Below, in pieces: positions 2,110-64,000 of a stretch of DNA of 64,000 bases (position 1 is its first letter; each line of letters opens with the position of its first letter). A program made the translations under genes and the position numbers. The notes below the pieces were generated by a model. That model was not told the DNA's origin, did no database searches, and worked only from the letters and a program-made list of their open reading frames with translations. This stretch comes from a virus (lineage: Duplodnaviria; Caudoviricetes). The stretch covers positions 99,396 to 163,395 of IMG/VR virus record IMGVR_UViG_3300028591_000098; one strand, given 5' to 3'.

Positions 2110-3537
2110 ATGGATATATTTTTTGGTCAATTCGCTGTGGTGTTAGAATATTTAACTTCACAAGAAAAACAATTAAATAAAGAAATAAAATTGTTAAATC
2201 GTCAAAAAAATAATTGTGAAATTTTACTTAATACATTAGATACAACCGATCCACAATATAATGATATTAGTAAAAATTACACTAAATTAGAAACTGAATT
2301 ACATACAAAAGAAAACGAATTAGAGGCTATTAATAATGAAATTAGTAGTTTTAAAGATAATGCATCTTATGGTGGAGCAGCTAAGATTATTACTTCCCCA
2401 AAATTTAATCGTAATTTAGTATATAATGGAACTCCACAACAATTAGTATCAAATATTGGATATGCTATTGGAGGAACAATACAATTTAGATTATCAACAC
2501 AACAAGAATATAGTTCAGATATACCTACAGTAACAAATGCTGGATCATATTATGTATATTATAAAGCAATAGGTATTGATGGCAGAGAAGATTCAGAAGA
2601 AGTTGAAATAAATGTAAATATTTCAAAAGCAAATTTAACTATTATTCCACCTACAGGTATTGAAAATTTAGCTTATAATGGACAAGATCAAAAATTAATT
2701 AATCCAAATACTGGTCTTGTTAATGGTGAGCAATTAATAGAATATTCTATCGATAATAGTAGTACTTATAGTAGAAATATTCCAACCGGACAAAATGTAG
2801 GAAGTTATACTATATACTGGAGAATATATACAGCTGGAATAGATACCAATAATTATAATTATAGTGAAAATGATGATAATAGTGGTCAAATAAACGTTAA
2901 TATTAACAAAGGTAATTATAATATTACTGTAACTGTTGATGATTGTATCGTCGGTAGTACTCCTAATGTAATTATAGATGGATTAGAAAGATATGGTATA
3001 GAATCTTATACTGAGGAATATAAAAAAGTAACAGATCCAGATACTGAATATTCAACAGATGTACCTACTGAAATAGGTAGTTATATTGTTAAAGTACAGA
3101 TTGCTGGTAATAATAATTATAATGATTTTGTAAAAACTGTACAATTTAGAATTATGTCAGAAAATACTGATGTTCGAGTTGATGAATATTATTGGTATAT
3201 AGGTATTGATAACCCTATGGATAGTGATTCCATTTCATCTGTAGTTAATTATGATTCAACATTACCTGGTTGGAGATATATTGGAAATACTTTAGGTACT
3301 TATGATAAAAATACTAATAAATTATGGGATGGTGATAAAAACTCTATTATATTCCCTAAAAGGTCTAACTATTATATTGCATTACCATCAAATAAATTAA
3401 ATTTATATAATACTTTTGGTGCTAATGAAATGGAAAATTGCAACTTTATAGGAACTAAGAAAATAAACGGCAACATAGATTATTATATTTATCAACGTGC
3501 TGTATCTGTAAAACAATTTAACTTTAATATATATTAG
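2110..3537 (+). CDS. virion surface/fibre protein with coiled coil and Ig-like repeats; ends at TAG
   Basis: Repeated LxYNGxxQxL..YS..IP...NAGSYxVY units. Confidence 0.55.
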   Translation: MDIFFGQFAVVLEYLTSQEKQLNKEIKLLNRQKNNCEILLNTLDTTDPQYNDISKNYTKLETELHTKENELEAINNEISSFKDNASYGGAAKIITSPKFNRNLVYNGTPQQLVSNIGYAIGGTIQFRLSTQQEYSSDIPTVTNAGSYYVYYKAIGIDGREDSEEVEINVNISKANLTIIPPTGIENLAYNGQDQKLINPNTGLVNGEQLIEYSIDNSSTYSRNIPTGQNVGSYTIYWRIYTAGIDTNNYNYSENDDNSGQINVNINKGNYNITVTVDDCIVGSTPNVIIDGLERYGIESYTEEYKKVTDPDTEYSTDVPTEIGSYIVKVQIAGNNNYNDFVKTVQFRIMSENTDVRVDEYYWYIGIDNPMDSDSISSVVNYDSTLPGWRYIGNTLGTYDKNTNKLWDGDKNSIIFPKRSNYYIALPSNKLNLYNTFGANEMENCNFIGTKKINGNIDYYIYQRAVSVKQFNFNIY

Positions 3538-60207: not shown

Positions 60208-60486
60208 ATTAACAATATATTTACTAAGTATGGGTTAAGATTGCTTACTGTTTGTAAACCCCAATTGCTTCACGTTTACCCATGCAGACGTATCACTCAT
60301 CACAAGTCTTACACCATACGATTAACCATACGTACTTAGATGTTAATGAGGTATTTATAACTACCTTTAATCATTTATTCCATCGATGCTTTCTCCTTTG
60401 CAAGATTTCCTAAAGTACTAACTCACAAAAGCCAATTTCCAGTACTTAACTTTATTAGTTTCTCATACTTAGTAGTTTGTTTCTTG

Positions 60487-60560
60487 TGGAGCCAGTGAGG
60501 ATCAAACTCACGACCTCAACATTGCAAGTGTTGTGCTCTAGTCAACTAAGCTACGACCCC
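60487..60560 (-). tRNA. tRNA-Ala(UGC)
   Basis: CAACA-CTTGCAA-TGTTG; G3-U70. Confidence 0.9.
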
Positions 60561-60567
60561 ATAAATA

Positions 60568-60709
60568 AATATTCAAAGAACGTTCGATAAAAGTCCATAG
60601 AGTTGGATTCGAACCAACGACCTCCAGTTTTCAACGCTGGTGTTCTACCCCTGAACTACCCTTCCAAAATTGGCGGAAGAAGTAACTCTTATCTACACTA
60701 TTGAAATAT
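60568..60709 (-). ncRNA. Y-RNA-like (YrlA-like) tRNA mimic
   Basis: TGTAG-ATAAGAGT-TACTTC 5' strand pairing with ACTTTTAT-CG 3' strand, enclosing D, anticodon-like and T arms. Confidence 0.55.
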
Positions 60710-60710
60710 G

Positions 60711-60806
60711 CTCCTCTGCGTGGATTCGAACCACCTCTATATATGAACGTTCATAACCAATATAGAGAACCAAGGACTTATTTTTCGGCGCCTTATAAAC
60801 AGAGAA
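60711..60806 (-). ncRNA. tRNA-like RNA lacking a normal anticodon loop
   Basis: TTCTCTG/CAGAGGA acceptor and GTGG-TTCGAAT-CCAC T arm; atypical middle hairpins. Confidence 0.6.
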
Positions 60807-60812
60807 ATAATG

Positions 60813-60893
60813 AGCCGGAAGTCAGATTCGAACTGACGTGTCATACGAGTCGGGTTACAAATCCGATGGAGTCGACCACTGTCCCATTCCGGC
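60813..60893 (-). tRNA. tRNA-Thr(UGU) with enlarged variable region
   Basis: GCCGGAA/TTCCGGC; TCGGA-TTTGTAA-CCCGA. Confidence 0.75.
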
Positions 60894-61111
60894 AAATGTA
60901 AGTTTTGACTGAACTTACAAAACAGACTATGAACGTCTTCATAGATTTTAAATTTGTGATGACAACCTGATATAAATCATCACCGAATTGGTTAAGAGTC
61001 GTTCGGGTTAGGTTGATAGGCTAGTTATTTACCACTGCCTTACTGAGCCTCCCAATTCATTTTACCTATCATTCTACTTCTGTCAGGTACATGCCCTATT
61101 ACGGGACCGAG

Positions 61112-61195
61112 TTGCGGCCTTTGGAATCGAACCAAAACAAGCATTTTCTGTCTCAAGGTTATGAGCCTTGCATCTTACCATTAGACTAGACCGCG
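61112..61195 (-). tRNA. tRNA-Met(CAU), initiator-like, with long variable region
   Basis: C1:A72 mismatch; CAAGG-CTCATAA-CCTTG; 17-nt variable region. Confidence 0.8.
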
Positions 61196-61257
61196 ATATT
61201 TTATTATATATTAATGATAGTATTTTAAATTTTTAAATTCAATACCGTCATTATTTG

Positions 61258-61400
61258 CTACCTCTGAGGGACTCGAACCCCCGACCCACTGCTTAACAGG
61301 CATTAACATTGAAGTAACTCTAACCTACAACATTCTTACGAAGTAACAGCGACTAAAGTGTGTACAATAAAAGCTGCTCTACCAACTGAGCTAAGAGGTA
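61258..61400 (-). tRNA. tRNA-Asn(GUU) interrupted by 70-nt insertion (61302-61371)
   Basis: Removing the insert restores GCTGC-CTGTTAA-GCAGT and a 73-nt cloverleaf. Confidence 0.85.
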
Positions 61401-61405
61401 ATTTG

Positions 61406-61652
61406 TAGCGGCCATGGGAGTCGAACCCATTATCTGTACCTTCCCGGCACCGTGATCATTTCCAAAACAAGTAACTTGGCTCATCACTTTATCCGCGGCT
61501 TGCTTGGCCTCTAAACTTGTTTATTTCTTGATGTTGTTAAATACTTTTTTAAAGATATTTACCCGTCGATAAATAGAGCTCTTATTATAAATATGTAACA
61601 TAAAGTCCGCCGACACATCAAAATAGAAACTTATCCGTTTCACTCGGACACT
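61406..61652 (-). ncRNA. tRNA-like RNA with ~180-nt D-loop expansion and 5-nt anticodon loop
   Basis: AGTGTCC/GGCCGCT, D stem GTGA/TCAC, GTGCC-GGGAA-GGTAC, ATGGG-TTCGACT-CCCAT. Confidence 0.75.
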
Positions 61653-61661
61653 GAAAGTTTG

Positions 61662-61730
61662 TTGGAGTCGAAGATTCGAACTTCACCTCGGACGCGCGAT
61701 CACGTGTGCTTACCGTTACACCAAACTCCG
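61662..61730 (-). ncRNA. tRNA-like RNA with 4-nt anticodon loop
   Basis: Normal acceptor, D and T arms; ACGTG-ATCG-CGCGT. Confidence 0.65.
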
Positions 61731-61747
61731 ATTCTTGCAAGAATTAG

Positions 61748-61818
61748 CGGGAGTAGAGGGAATCGAACCCACACCTGGTGATTAACAGTCACATGCTCGA
61801 CCTTCGAGCTATACTCCC
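61748..61818 (-). tRNA. tRNA-Asn(GUU)
   Basis: TGTGA-CTGTTAA-TCACC; G73. Confidence 0.9.
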
Positions 61819-62021
61819 AATAAAATATCTAACCCACTTAGCCTTCCGTGATATGGTCCACTAAACTATCCTTTGGCCTCGAATGTTTCGCGAGTTGTAC
61901 ACCTCCTAACACCTGTACCACCAACGTAACCGATTTCCTTTGCGTTCACCATAACAAGTAGATGTAACCCTACTACTAGCATTGTACTCTCATCAGTTAC
62001 TCCGTCCTGATTAGATATTAG

Positions 62022-62165
62022 ATGATGGAGTGGGATTCGAACCCACGACCCGTTGCTTAAAAGGCATTAACATTGAAGTAACTCTAACCTACAACATCCA
62101 TAGGAGTAACAGCGACTAAAGTATGAAACAATTAAAACTGCTCTAACCATCTGAGCTATCCATCA
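62022..62165 (-). tRNA. tRNA-Lys(UUU) interrupted by 70-nt insertion (62066-62135)
   Basis: Removing the insert restores GTTGC-CTTTTAA-GCAAC. Confidence 0.85.
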
Positions 62166-62173
62166 AATATATT

Positions 62174-62995
62174 TTATTTATTAATCTTCTTAGATAAATT
62201 AATAAATGTATAATTATCTTCAACTATATCTTGATTCTTAAAATCAAATAATAATTCCGGATTTATTGGTTTTCCACACAAACGAGTTTCAAAATGTAAA
62301 TGTGCACCAGTACTTCGTCCAGTATTTCCAACTAATCCAATAGGTTCTCCCGAAGAAATTGTTTGATTTGGTTTAACTAATTGTTTAGACATATGTCCAT
62401 AATAAGTTTCTAATCCATTATGATGTCTAATTACAACAAAATAACCATATCCTCTTGGATCATTTTTAACAATACGAACTTTTCCGGAAAATGCTGCATA
62501 TATAGTATCACCTTTATGTCCATCAATATCTACTCCTTGATGCATTCGTTTCCATCTTTTACCATACTTGGATGTTATTAATGTTTTTTTAACTGGCATT
62601 GAAAAACCTGTCATATGAACAGTATACTTTTCTGGAATATAACTTGATTTATAATGAGTCATTTCATTATCAAAATTATCATATAAATCAAATCCTGTCA
62701 TATGATATTTTTTCATTTCTATTGTTATAGGTGCAGCTTTTGCTATCAACTTATTATCTTGTGCATATCCAAAAGATAATGTAAAAAATATAAAAATCAT
62801 CAATAATATGTATTTTATATTATTCTGATCATTCTTAAATAAAGAGATTATAGGTTTTAGTGTATTTCCATTCTTTAAATTATCTTCCTTTATGCCTTGA
62901 ATATATGAAATACTAAATATACTCAAAAACATAATCATAAGTATTACTCCCATCATAATAAACAATGAAGCCGTGCTAAATATATTAGCCATCAT
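62174..62995 (-). CDS. M23-family metallopeptidase with N-terminal TM segments
   Basis: HQGVD, YYGHM, TGRSTGAHLHFE. Confidence 0.92.
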   Translation of the reverse strand: MMANIFSTASLFIMMGVILMIMFLSIFSISYIQGIKEDNLKNGNTLKPIISLFKNDQNNIKYILLMIFIFFTLSFGYAQDNKLIAKAAPITIEMKKYHMTGFDLYDNFDNEMTHYKSSYIPEKYTVHMTGFSMPVKKTLITSKYGKRWKRMHQGVDIDGHKGDTIYAAFSGKVRIVKNDPRGYGYFVVIRHHNGLETYYGHMSKQLVKPNQTISSGEPIGLVGNTGRSTGAHLHFETRLCGKPINPELLFDFKNQDIVEDNYTFINLSKKINK

Positions 62996-63121
62996 ATAAA
63001 TTATGCTACGCTGAGAATCTACATAATTTAATGAATATCTCTTCTAAAAAACTACTATATTTAATATTTCTCTTACCGTAGAAATATTAATGTGCTTTAT
63101 TTTTAAATATTTTTGTTATAG

Positions 63122-63201
63122 TTGCGAATTCAGGAGTCGAACCTGATATCTCGTAGGTTATGAGCCTAGAATGATTTATATATCCGTTTCACTCATTCGC
63201 G
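63122..63201 (-). tRNA. tRNA-Met(CAU), initiator-like, with slightly enlarged D loop
   Basis: C1:A72; D loop AACGGATATATAAA; TAGG-CTCATAA-CCTA. Confidence 0.75.
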
Positions 63202-63209
63202 ATATTATT

Positions 63210-63842
63210 CTAATTTTTTATAATAAAATTTTTTATTTGATTAATATAATTTTCTTTATTCTTTGATTTTTTATATTCTGACCATTTAATTCTTATTCCT
63301 TCCCATCCTAATTGTTTTAAATATTCTGTACGTTCAATATCATGTTTAATCATATATGGTAAATTGTGTTGATCTCCATCAATTTCAACATATTTCATTA
63401 AATCTTCATTATAAAAATCTAATTCATATCTACCAACTTGTTTATGATATAGTAAAGGTATATTTTCTTTTTCAAATAATTTTTCAAAGTATTTTTCAGG
63501 ATAACTTTGTTTAGATGAATGATTTAATTTAAATGGAATTTTATCAGGATGTTCTTCTAAATATTTTTTCCTTGATAATGAAATTTTTTGTTTCATCTCT
63601 TCAGGTAATTTTTTTCCTTTCCAAATATTACCTATTTTTTCTTTAGCTTCTTTACTTAATGTAGGAATTGATAATCCTAATTCTTTTGCTTTAATATATT
63701 TATTTGTTGGTTTTCTTATTTTATTATAATCTCCACAAAAATAAGATAATATTCTATTAGGATTTTCTTTACATCTTATTTCATGTTGAGCTAATGAATT
63801 TTTATTTTTACATTCTTTTCCACAATATTTGCAAATAAACAT
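63210..63842 (-). CDS. DUF559/Vsr-like endonuclease with C2H2-like finger and NUMOD3-like segment (homing-endonuclease-like); ends at TAG
   Basis: CKYCGKEC...HEIRC, EEMKQKIS, YELDF...VEIDGDQH...D.ER..L...GW..IRI.W. Confidence 0.75.
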   Translation of the reverse strand: MFICKYCGKECKNKNSLAQHEIRCKENPNRILSYFCGDYNKIRKPTNKYIKAKELGLSIPTLSKEAKEKIGNIWKGKKLPEEMKQKISLSRKKYLEEHPDKIPFKLNHSSKQSYPEKYFEKLFEKENIPLLYHKQVGRYELDFYNEDLMKYVEIDGDQHNLPYMIKHDIERTEYLKQLGWEGIRIKWSEYKKSKNKENYINQIKNFIIKN

Positions 63843-63861
63843 AATATTATTATTAAATTTG

Positions 63862-63935
63862 TACGCCCACTGGGACTCGAACCCAGGACCCCCGCCTTAA
63901 AAGGGCGGTGCATCTACCAACTGAGCTACGGGCGC
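63862..63935 (-). tRNA. tRNA-Lys(UUU)
   Basis: CCGCC-CTTTTAA-GGCGG. Confidence 0.92.
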
Positions 63936-64000
63936 AAATCTCATTAGAATTAATAACACTCATTGGAATTTTACCAAATCTAAGATTTCATCAAAAATTT

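What the first reader, a model, noticed from the sequence alone, without database searches (positions are those of the whole stretch)
61258..62165. tRNA-Asn and tRNA-Lys carry the same 70-nt insert resembling a circularly permuted Y-RNA Ro60-binding domain
Seen: both inserts are 70 nt, at the same site in the 5' anticodon stem (about 29/30), and share ACTTTAGTCGCTGTTACT-[TCGTAAGA or CCTATGG]-ATGTTGTAGGTTAGAGTTACTTCAATGTTAAT although the host tRNAs differ. Uninterrupted Asn(GUU) and Lys(UUU) genes are also present. The two conserved strands are those that form the free ends of the element at 60568, here in reverse order and joined by a short hairpin. Inference: tRNA-Y RNA chimeras with real acceptor ends, a possible evolutionary link between tRNA and YrlA, which could tether Ro60/RtcB repair or bait anticodon nucleases (PrrC cuts Lys-UUU; colicin E5 cuts Asn). 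Alternative: a new small tRNA intron class.
Basis: partly seen in the sequence, partly recalled or inferred. Interest (0 to 1): 0.9.

Follow-up and report, generated by a model that had tools for sequence, protein, structure and literature searches.

The report
tRNA genes carrying a Ro60-binding hairpin
Two otherwise complete phage tRNA genes (Asn, Lys) carry a 70-base hairpin in the anticodon stem; it is the conserved RNA "handle" found beside Ro60 ring-protein genes in hundreds of phages and Bacteroidota, so they are most likely tRNA-shaped Ro60 partner RNAs (Y RNAs), not tRNAs with introns.

Summary
tRNA-Asn(GUU) (61258-61400, minus strand) and tRNA-Lys(UUU) (62022-62165, minus strand) each carry an exactly 70-nt insert after tRNA nucleotide 28, with a 1-nt ambiguity. 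Removing it restores a perfect cloverleaf.

The insert core is a hairpin: a 9-bp helix, a conserved 6/4-nt internal loop, a 5-bp helix with a bulged U, and a UACUUC tail. Its two strands are those that form the terminal stem of RNAs encoded beside Ro60/TROVE genes.
- An 18-mer from the insert hit 40 phage loci. TROVE is present in 24 of 35 of those records and in 12 of 12 complete ones, usually within 1.5 kb.
- In 79 Ro60 loci chosen by protein alone, 79 such modules lie mostly just upstream of the gene. Some carry the published Rsr motif GNCGAAG.
- The motif also sits beside Ro60 in 30 of 60 bacterial loci, mostly Bacteroidota.

Hairpin-in-tRNA versions recur in megaphage tRNA islands. They also lie unannotated just downstream of the TROVE gene of cultured crAss001-like Bacteroides phages.

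I rate it a new topological variant of Y RNA; its function is untested. The scan noted the same kind of element before on other DNA.

The parts
61258..61400 (-). tRNA-Asn(GUU)-Y RNA chimera. It has acceptor UACCUCU/AGAGGUA with G73, a normal D arm, anticodon loop CUGUUAA and T arm, plus the 70-nt insert.
   Evidence: Virtual excision followed by ARAGORN gives tRNA-Asn gtt.
61303..61372 (-). The 70-nt insert in the Asn chimera, between tRNA nt 28 and 29. It comprises a leader, the module hairpin and a trailer.
61311..61359 (-). Core Ro60-type module. P2 is ACUUUAGUC/GGUUAGAGU. The internal loop is GCUGUU / UGUA. P3 is ACUUC/GAA(U)GU, capped by GUAA. The 3' tail is UACUUC.
   Evidence: Covariance model R1 scores 73.7 bits, E 5e-14.
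62022..62165 (-). tRNA-Lys(UUU)-Y RNA chimera. It has acceptor UGAUGGA/UCCAUCA with U73 and anticodon loop CUUUUAA, plus the 70-nt insert.
   Evidence: Virtual excision followed by ARAGORN gives tRNA-Lys ttt.
62067..62136 (-). The 70-nt insert in the Lys chimera, at the same site.
62075..62122 (-). Core Ro60-type module of the Lys chimera. P3 is ACUCC/GGA(U)GU, capped by UAU.
   Evidence: R1 scores 67.7 bits, E 1e-12. These two are the only R1 hits in the 64-kb window.
60575..60702 (-). Y-RNA-like element with the same module in open form. The 5' strand is AAUAGUGUAGAUAAGAGUUACUUC and the 3' strand is ACUUUUAUCGAACGUUCUUU. They enclose a tRNA-like body, which Rfam tRNA matches at 60598-60665.
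   Evidence: P2 is 9/9 paired. P3 is AA(U)AG/CUUU, which fits the consensus register.
61747..61818 (-). Uninterrupted tRNA-Asn(GUU).
63861..63935 (-). Uninterrupted tRNA-Lys(UUU). The contig ends 65 nt further on, inside the tRNA island.

Best explanation
The 70-nt insert is a Ro60 (Rsr/TROVE protein) binding module of the Y-RNA type. In ordinary phage and Bacteroidota Y RNAs the two strands of this module are the RNA's 5' and 3' ends. Here the module is closed by a short loop and grafted as a side arm between nucleotides 28 and 29 of an otherwise complete tRNA. The products are therefore most likely about 143-nt tRNA-shaped Y RNAs. They would be transcribed with the tRNA island and trimmed at genuine acceptor ends by the normal tRNA enzymes (inferred). 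They would stay unspliced (inferred) and be bound through the side arm by a Ro60 ring (inferred from gene linkage). That ring would be phage-encoded, as in the related megaphages, or the host's own. The tRNA body then acts as the effector domain that links Ro60 to something that handles tRNAs (inferred; the partner is unknown). What is shown: the sequence and structure identity of the module, its covariation, its linkage to Ro60 genes, and the recurrence of the tRNA-embedded form. What is inferred: binding, lack of splicing, and function.
For: (1) Linkage in a pattern-selected set. The 18-mer GTAGRTWAGAGTTACTTC hit 40 IMG/VR loci, nearly all in tRNA or tRNA-like contexts. TROVE is present in 24 of 35 of those records and in 12 of 12 that are at least 90% complete. 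In about 19 of the 24 it lies within about 1.5 kb on the same strand (coordinates).

(2) Linkage in a protein-selected set. Among 79 Ro60 loci I found 79 modules in 47 loci, 62 of them within 600 nt upstream of the gene. The consensus is GUGGYGWA-[9 variable]-UACUUC paired with [9 variable]-GCYUGUUCCC, with 74 distinct P2 9-mers. The P3 pairs were not imposed and covary. Thirteen modules carry the published Rsr motif GNCGAAN0-1G (motif from PMC4201824).

(3) The permuted form. L013 holds a tRNA-Lys(CUU) body opened at 28/29, with its acceptor closed by UUU, directly upstream of a TROVE ORF.

(4) The hairpin form. In a 15-sequence alignment 95.7% of cells are paired, 0 of 500 shuffles reach that, and 5 of 5 P3 pairs are compensatory. 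Model R1 finds only the two inserts in the window. In the Ro60 loci all 14 R1 hits are on the gene strand, 13 of them within 760 nt upstream. In crAss-like Ro60 loci there are mostly two hits, 80-650 nt downstream of the gene.

(5) Cultured phages. Kehishuvirus (crAss001-like) phages carry two such elements in the unannotated gap after their TROVE gene.

(6) Relatives. Megaphage records with the same kind of tRNA island and chimeras (193, 254 and 435 kb) do encode Ro60, far from the island.

(7) Loop decay. Close relatives of the crAss-type chimera have clean Lys UUU or Thr UGU loops, or degenerate 9-nt loops. This argues against use in decoding.

(8) Bacterial genomes. The same motif lies beside TROVE in 30 of 60 loci, mostly Bacteroidota chromosomes, so a host Ro60 could also serve.
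Against: No TROVE gene is present in the held 163 kb (64% complete) of this genome. There are no expression, binding or splicing data. Thermodynamic folding does not favour the proposed cloverleaf plus side arm: -24.6 against an MFE of -36.8 kcal/mol for Asn, and z-scores are not significant. Rfam YrlA scores only 21 bits against a cut-off of 69. The window's copy of the protein-contact motif is the UGUAG variant, not the CGAAG form for which binding was studied. The two inserts in this genome are near-identical, so the covariation evidence comes from other genomes.
Confidence: 0.6

Rival explanations
1. A true tRNA intron of a new class. The hairpin is cut out by an unknown endonuclease and the halves are joined by RtcB, giving working tRNA-Asn and tRNA-Lys. 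The Ro60-type module would only mark or chaperone the precursor.
For: Excision restores perfect 5-bp anticodon stems and canonical tRNAs. This phage encodes RtcB, as does its relative G023. The authors of the YrlA structure preprint speculated that some YrlA RNAs might be processed to canonical tRNAs (bioRxiv 10.1101/312249).
Against: There is no BHB motif at the junctions (inspection). No splicing endonuclease is found in the held genome. RtcB is present in only 5 of 35 records that carry the module, and in 1 of 12 complete ones; the complete ~100-kb crAss-like records in that search have none. The same module occurs where nothing could be spliced, as the free ends of RNAs beside Ro60. Uninterrupted Asn and Lys genes already exist. 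Relatives have degenerate anticodon loops. There are no ribozyme or intron hits in Rfam.
Confidence: 0.2
2. Dead tRNA genes. A mobile or recombining copy of the phage's Y-RNA stem landed in two tRNA genes, and the interrupted copies are decaying pseudogenes made redundant by the intact Asn and Lys genes.
For: The two inserts are almost identical while the tRNA bodies are only about 70% identical. Intact isoacceptors are present.
Against: Every tRNA feature is intact in both copies: acceptor pairing, D and T arms, 7-nt loops with U33 and A37. The same site, 28/29, is used in unrelated phage groups (megaphages, crAss001-like phages, L031, L032). Orthologues in relatives keep the architecture (L009, L030). 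In crAss-like phages the chimera is the RNA that sits beside Ro60. P3 shows compensatory change between the two copies.
Confidence: 0.08
3. The conserved module binds some other factor, not Ro60, for example a protein co-encoded with TROVE or a tRNA-processing enzyme.
For: Binding has not been measured. The megaphage modules lie tens to hundreds of kb from the Ro60 gene.
Against: Across very different phages and bacterial chromosomes, mostly Bacteroidota, the one constant neighbour is the TROVE gene. The module has the bulged-helix design, and in 13 of 79 cases the exact motif, that the literature assigns to Rsr contact (PMC4201824).
Confidence: 0.07

Closest known systems
YrlA-type bacterial and phage Y RNAs (Rfam RF02553; Chen et al. 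2014, PMC4201824; structure preprint 10.1101/312249)
   Same: Both are non-coding RNAs linked to Ro60/Rsr genes. Both have a terminal bulged helix carrying a GNCGAA-like motif, joined to a tRNA-like domain at the anticodon-stem position. Both occur in phages.
   Different: In YrlA the ends are in the Ro60 stem, the acceptor is a closed loop, and there is no anticodon loop or CCA end. Here the acceptor ends are free, the anticodon arm is kept, and the Ro60 stem is a capped side arm at 28/29. The sequence class also differs (GYGWAG...UACUUC / GCYUGUUCCC), and the Rfam model scores far below its cut-off.
Thermus phage phiLo Ro60 with its Yrl1/Yrl2 RNAs (PMC12135203)
   Same: A phage-encoded Ro60 with partner RNAs encoded next to it. 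The complex was shown to bind host PNPase.
   Different: Those RNAs are simple stem-bulge-stem Y RNAs with a CGAA motif. They have no tRNA body.
Non-canonical archaeal tRNA introns (BHB type; review PMC4090602)
   Same: An insert in the anticodon-stem region, with the same insert in different tRNAs.
   Different: There is no BHB motif, no splicing endonuclease and a bacterial-phage setting. The insert is a protein-binding module that also exists outside tRNAs.
Circularly permuted tRNA genes (red alga Cyanidioschyzon and others, as discussed in 10.1101/312249)
   Same: The chimeras and the TROVE-adjacent form in L013 are circular permutations of one another.
   Different: In the algae the permuted precursor is processed to a normal tRNA. 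Nothing here shows such processing.
Phage tRNAs that defeat tRNA-cutting defence nucleases (T5 tRNA-Lys/Thr/Asn against PARIS AriB; 10.1101/2025.02.04.636281, PMC11464382)
   Same: The same tRNA species recur among the clean chimeras: Lys UUU, Thr UGU and Asn GUU. The insert sits opposite the reported 40/41 cut site.
   Different: This is a resemblance only. No nuclease or resistance was tested here, and other anticodons (Ile GAU, Gly UCC) and degenerate loops also occur.

Membership tests
Y RNA (Ro60/Rsr partner RNA, functional class) | Encoded with or next to a Ro60/TROVE gene | tested here: inconclusive
   This is met for the module family: 24 of 35 records and 12 of 12 complete ones, and 62 modules within 600 nt upstream of TROVE. 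Related megaphages also meet it. But no TROVE lies in the held 64% of this genome.
Y RNA (Ro60/Rsr partner RNA, functional class) | Bulged helix carrying the Ro60-contact motif (GNCGAAN0-1G in bacteria, GGUCCGA in vertebrates) | tested here: met
   The architecture is identical to the TROVE-adjacent RNAs: P3 with a bulged U, a 6-7/4 internal loop, and P2. The motif class is G-Y-G-W-A-G. Counts among the 79 modules are GCGAAG 13, GUGAAG 23, GUGUAG 16 and GCGUAG 14. The window has UGUAG with a compensated first pair.
Y RNA (Ro60/Rsr partner RNA, functional class) | Physical binding to Ro60 | not testable with these tools
   This needs EMSA or RIP.
YrlA (Rfam RF02553) | Score at or above the 69-bit gathering cut-off | tested here: not met
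   The best score is 21.2 bits, for a hit that spans two genes. There is no hit on the element at 60575-60702. There are no GA hits on 38 related loci, including TROVE-adjacent ones.
YrlA (Rfam RF02553) | Permuted tRNA-like domain: closed acceptor stem, no anticodon loop, ends in the Ro60 stem | tested here: not met
   The acceptor is open, the 7-nt anticodon loop is present, and the Ro60 stem is capped.
tRNA gene | Canonical cloverleaf and conserved nucleotides | tested here: met
   This holds only after the 70 nt are removed in silico: ARAGORN then calls Asn gtt and Lys ttt. As encoded, ARAGORN and Rfam miss or miscall both genes.
tRNA gene | Mature RNA with a continuous anticodon stem that decodes | not testable with these tools
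   This needs tRNA-seq and charging assays.
BHB-type tRNA intron | Bulge-helix-bulge at the splice sites, plus a splicing endonuclease | tested here: not met
   The start of the intron cannot form the 4-bp helix with the start of exon 2 (inspection). PF01974 is absent from the held genome.
Self-splicing intron or self-cleaving ribozyme | Match to a group I/II intron or a known ribozyme family | tested here: not met
   There is no such Rfam hit at E up to 10 in 58500-64000. Seventy nt is also far below group I/II size.

The most novel reading that the evidence does not exclude
The chimeras are a phage counter-measure aimed at host tRNA-cutting defence nucleases. The clean examples mimic the species that PARIS AriB-type and PrrC-type enzymes attack (Lys UUU, Thr UGU, Asn GUU, all with U36-A37-A38). 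The Ro60 handle emerges at 28/29, directly across the helix from the reported 40/41 cut site. A Ro60 ring held there could shield or sense the cut. Alternatively it could bring repair or decay enzymes (RtcB, PNPase) to damaged tRNAs, or the RNA could act as bait. This would give the tRNA-like half of bacterial Y RNAs its first concrete job.
Probability: 0.15. Interest if true: 0.9.

Novelty: new variant of a known kind. Interest (0 to 1): 0.72.

Why it matters
Bacterial and phage Y RNAs are known as tRNA mimics, but what the tRNA-like half does and where it came from are open questions. Here the half is not a mimic. It is a full tRNA with free acceptor ends and an anticodon loop, and the Ro60 handle is a side arm at one fixed position. 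The permuted (YrlA-like) and unpermuted forms coexist in related phages, opened at the same nucleotide. This gives a direct evolutionary bridge between tRNA and Y RNA. The same elements lie unannotated next to the early-expressed TROVE gene of crAss001-like phages. Those phages belong to the most abundant phage family in the human gut and have a cultured host, so binding, charging, splicing and knock-out tests can be done now. It also means that tRNA finders miss or miscall these genes, and that Rfam lacks this Bacteroidota/phage class of Y RNA.

Tried and rejected
- **Exact 22-mer scan.** A scan of viral contigs with an exact 22-mer of the insert found nothing. The degenerate 18-mer worked.
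- **Neighbouring gene.** Relatives of the neighbouring M23 peptidase gene were not found.
- **Known ribozyme or intron.** No Rfam match was found at E up to 10.
- **Archaeal-type intron.** There is no BHB motif and no endonuclease.
- **RtcB as a general partner.** It is present in only 5 of 35 records.
- **Literal YrlA membership.** The Rfam score is far below the cut-off.
- **Synteny around the G023 Ro60 gene.** I tried this to judge whether Ro60 lies in the missing part of this genome. The neighbours map to scattered places, so it is uninformative.
- **Two chimeras as close paralogues.** They are only 70% identical outside the insert, little more than to other tRNAs, so I make no firm claim.
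- **Thermodynamic support for the fold.** None was found.
- **Literature.** Searches of the papers the tool holds found no description of tRNA-embedded Ro60 modules. Two Y-RNA reviews were not held.

Full report
**Setting.** The window is the last 64 kb of a 163-kb IMG/VR phage record estimated to be 64% complete. Bases 59000-64000 hold a minus-strand tRNA island that runs off the contig end. Relatives with the same kind of island are large phages of up to 435 kb.

**The observation.**
- On the minus strand, 61400 to 61258 is a tRNA-Asn(GUU) and 62165 to 62022 a tRNA-Lys(UUU). Each is interrupted by exactly 70 nt after tRNA nucleotide 28.
- A shared T allows the site to be written 29/30, but relatives fix it at 28/29.
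- Removing the insert restores 5-bp anticodon stems (GCUGC/GCAGU and GUUGC/GCAAC). ARAGORN then calls Asn gtt and Lys ttt.
- As encoded, ARAGORN misses the first and miscalls the second, and Rfam misses both.
- The two inserts share 18-nt and 32-nt identical blocks. The 32-mer occurs twice against 0 expected by chance.
- Intact Asn and Lys genes are also present.

**Anatomy of the insert.** It folds as one long hairpin:
- a weak P1 made by its ends (UAUUG/CAAUG);
- a 9-bp P2 (ACUUUAGUC/GGUUAGAGU);
- an asymmetric internal loop (GCUGUU on the 5' side, UGUA on the 3' side);
- a 5-bp P3 with a bulged U, capped by GUAA or UAU;
- a conserved single-stranded UACUUC after P2.

The only stem difference between the two copies is a compensatory U-A to C-G change in P3.

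**What the module is: pattern-selected set.** The degenerate 18-mer GTAGRTWAGAGTTACTTC was taken from the inserts and from the element at 60679-60702. It hit 40 loci in IMG/VR, and nearly all are in tRNA or tRNA-like contexts.

In L013, a complete 54.7-kb phage, the motif begins an RNA that lies directly upstream of an ORF with a TROVE domain. Read 5' to 3', that RNA is:
- GGUGGUGUAGGUAAGAGUUACUUC;
- a Lys(CUU) anticodon arm;
- a T arm;
- an acceptor stem closed by UUU;
- a D arm;
- ACUCUUGUCGCUUGUUCCCC.

This is a circularly permuted tRNA opened between nucleotides 28 and 29, whose ends form the same P2, loop and P3 module.

Across the 35 searchable records that hold the motif, 24 encode a TROVE protein, including 12 of 12 that are at least 90% complete. 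From the coordinates, about 19 of those 24 have the motif within about 1.5 kb of the gene on the same strand.

**What the module is: protein-selected set.** To remove the bias of a window-derived pattern, I aligned 12 phage Ro60 proteins and fetched 80 loci by protein similarity. More than 521 relatives exist in IMG/VR. Setting aside L044, which is L013's own record, the remaining 79 loci gave these results.
- I anchored only on UCGCUUGUUCC (up to 2 mismatches) and a complementary 9-mer. This found 79 modules in 47 loci, 62 of them within 600 nt upstream of TROVE.
- The consensus is GUGGYGWA-[9 nt]-UACUUC and [9 nt]-GCYUGUUCCC.
- P2 is almost free in sequence, with 74 distinct 9-mers.
- The P3 pairs, which I did not impose, are 77-79 of 79 paired with several pair types. 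The bulged U is 93% conserved.
- The strand that precedes the effector domain reads G-Y-G-W-A-G. Thirteen modules carry exactly GNCGAAN0-1G, the motif that Chen et al. assign to Rsr contact (PMC4201824).
- The window's version is the UGUAG variant, which is common in this set.

**The hairpin form.**
- A 15-sequence alignment of hairpin-form modules gives 95.7% paired cells. None of 500 shuffles reach that, slid controls give 30-48%, and all five P3 pairs show changes on both sides.
- The covariance model R1 built from it finds only the two inserts in the 64-kb window, at 73.7 and 67.7 bits.
- In the protein-selected Ro60 loci, all 14 R1 hits are on the gene strand and 13 lie within 760 nt upstream.

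**Bacterial genomes.** The 18-mer hits 60 loci, mostly Bacteroidota. Thirty of them have a TROVE gene within the 8 kb fetched. This is therefore the Bacteroidota/phage class of Y-RNA stem, and a host Ro60 could recognise it.

**Recurrence of the tRNA-embedded form.** Hairpin modules at the same site occur in several groups.
- Related megaphage islands carry Lys UUU, Thr UGU, Ile GAU and Gly UCC chimeras.
- The slot that follows the same upstream tRNA-like 3' end holds Asn GUU in this window and Ile GAU in L030. L009 carries a chimera with an Asn-like body but a Thr UGU anticodon.
- L031 carries an Ile GAU chimera.
- Phages of about 100 kb carry them too. These proved to be crAss001-like Kehishuvirus phages of Bacteroides intestinalis.
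- In PhiCrAssBcn1 two R1 hits lie in the unannotated 850-nt gap just after the TROVE gene. The same pattern holds in a dozen other crAss-like Ro60 loci.
- The crAss001 TROVE gene is reported to be an early gene. No partner RNA is described in the papers I could search (PMC8375218).
- Among close crAss-like relatives the anticodon loop is a clean Lys UUU, a Thr UGU or a degenerate 9-nt loop. This is hard to reconcile with a decoding role.

**This genome's Ro60.**
- No TROVE gene is found in the held 163 kb. An RtcB is present at G000:C1:61137-62336.
- Three large relatives that hold the same type of island and chimeras (193, 254 and 435 kb) encode Ro60, tens to hundreds of kb from the island.
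- I infer that a Ro60 gene lies in the missing third or that the host's is used. This is not shown.

**Against an intron.**
- There is no BHB geometry at the junctions.
- No splicing endonuclease is found.
- There is no ribozyme or intron match in Rfam.
- RtcB occurs in only 5 of 35 module-bearing records.
- The same module forms the free ends of RNAs that cannot be introns.
- Excision nevertheless remains possible, and Wang et al. raised it for YrlA (10.1101/312249).

**Weak points.**
- Nearest-neighbour folding does not prefer the cloverleaf plus side arm (-24.6 against -36.8 kcal/mol), and z-scores are not significant.
- Rfam YrlA gives only 21 bits. It also fails on every TROVE-adjacent RNA of this class.
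- Nothing here measures binding, expression or splicing.

**A lead, not a finding.** PARIS AriB is reported to cut tRNA-Lys(UUU), Thr(UGU) and Asn(GUU) between nucleotides 40 and 41 (10.1101/2025.02.04.636281). These are the commonest identities among the clean chimeras, and 28/29 lies across the helix from that site. Other identities and degenerate loops also occur, so I rate this at about 15%.

**Verdict.**
- Observation: confirmed.
- First reading: supported in its core.
- Membership: this is a member of the Y-RNA functional class by architecture and gene linkage, with binding untested. It is not a member of Rfam YrlA.
- Novelty: a new topological variant, namely an unpermuted tRNA with a capped Ro60 arm.
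I saw that note only after reaching mine.

Noticed in passing
L125:3150-3200 and 3385-3434 (Bacteroides phage PhiCrAssBcn1, OQ221536.1, about 72.7-73.0 kb): Two hairpin-form Ro60 modules inside tRNA or tRNA-like bodies lie in the unannotated 850-nt gap after the TROVE gene of a cultured crAss001-like phage. 24 phage GenBank records in the phage collection match this region.
   Followed up: partly
window 61258-61400; L030:8805-8887; L009:6864-6912 with flanks; L199:6216-6265: L030 holds an Ile GAU chimera at the position syntenic to the window's Asn GUU chimera. L009 (Thr UGU) and L199 (Thr GGU) carry chimeras with an Asn-like anticodon stem. Identity seems to turn over while the architecture is kept.
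   Followed up: partly
L126-L190: The megaphage Ro60 is 62-64% identical to the Ro60 of the ~100-kb crAss001-like phages. This suggests that the Ro60 plus chimera kit is shared between very different phages of Bacteroidales.
   Followed up: no
window 59523-59744, 61401-61560, 61660-61740, 63120-63200 (minus strand): There are further T-arm-bearing, tRNA-like elements that neither ARAGORN nor model R1 recognises. Some hold degenerate GUUACUU-like words, for example GAGCCAAGUUACUUG near 61470. They may be more diverged Y-type scaffolds.
   Followed up: no
L199, L205, L220 (genome contigs): Contigs binned into a Clostridia MAG, a Ruminococcus RUG MAG and a Holosporaceae MAG carry megaphage-type chimeras nearly identical to those of L009 and L026. 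They are probably phage contigs mis-binned into bacterial MAGs.
   Followed up: no
L082:1988-2115, L098:1699-1828, L065:2076-2220: Rfam's tRNA model spans these TROVE-upstream RNAs as 128-145-nt 'tRNAs' with a large insert. In L082 and L098 these are hairpin-form Y RNAs with open acceptor stems in GC-richer phages, where the module replaces the anticodon arm.
   Followed up: partly
window 59261-59332 and 59760-61195: The island holds an amber-suppressor tRNA(CUA). It also holds Trp, Thr and Met tRNAs of 82-87 nt with long variable regions.
   Followed up: no
window 63210-63842 (minus strand): An ORF with DUF559/REase_MTES_1575 endonuclease-like domains sits inside the tRNA island, next to an M23 peptidase gene at 62174-62995.
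   Followed up: no
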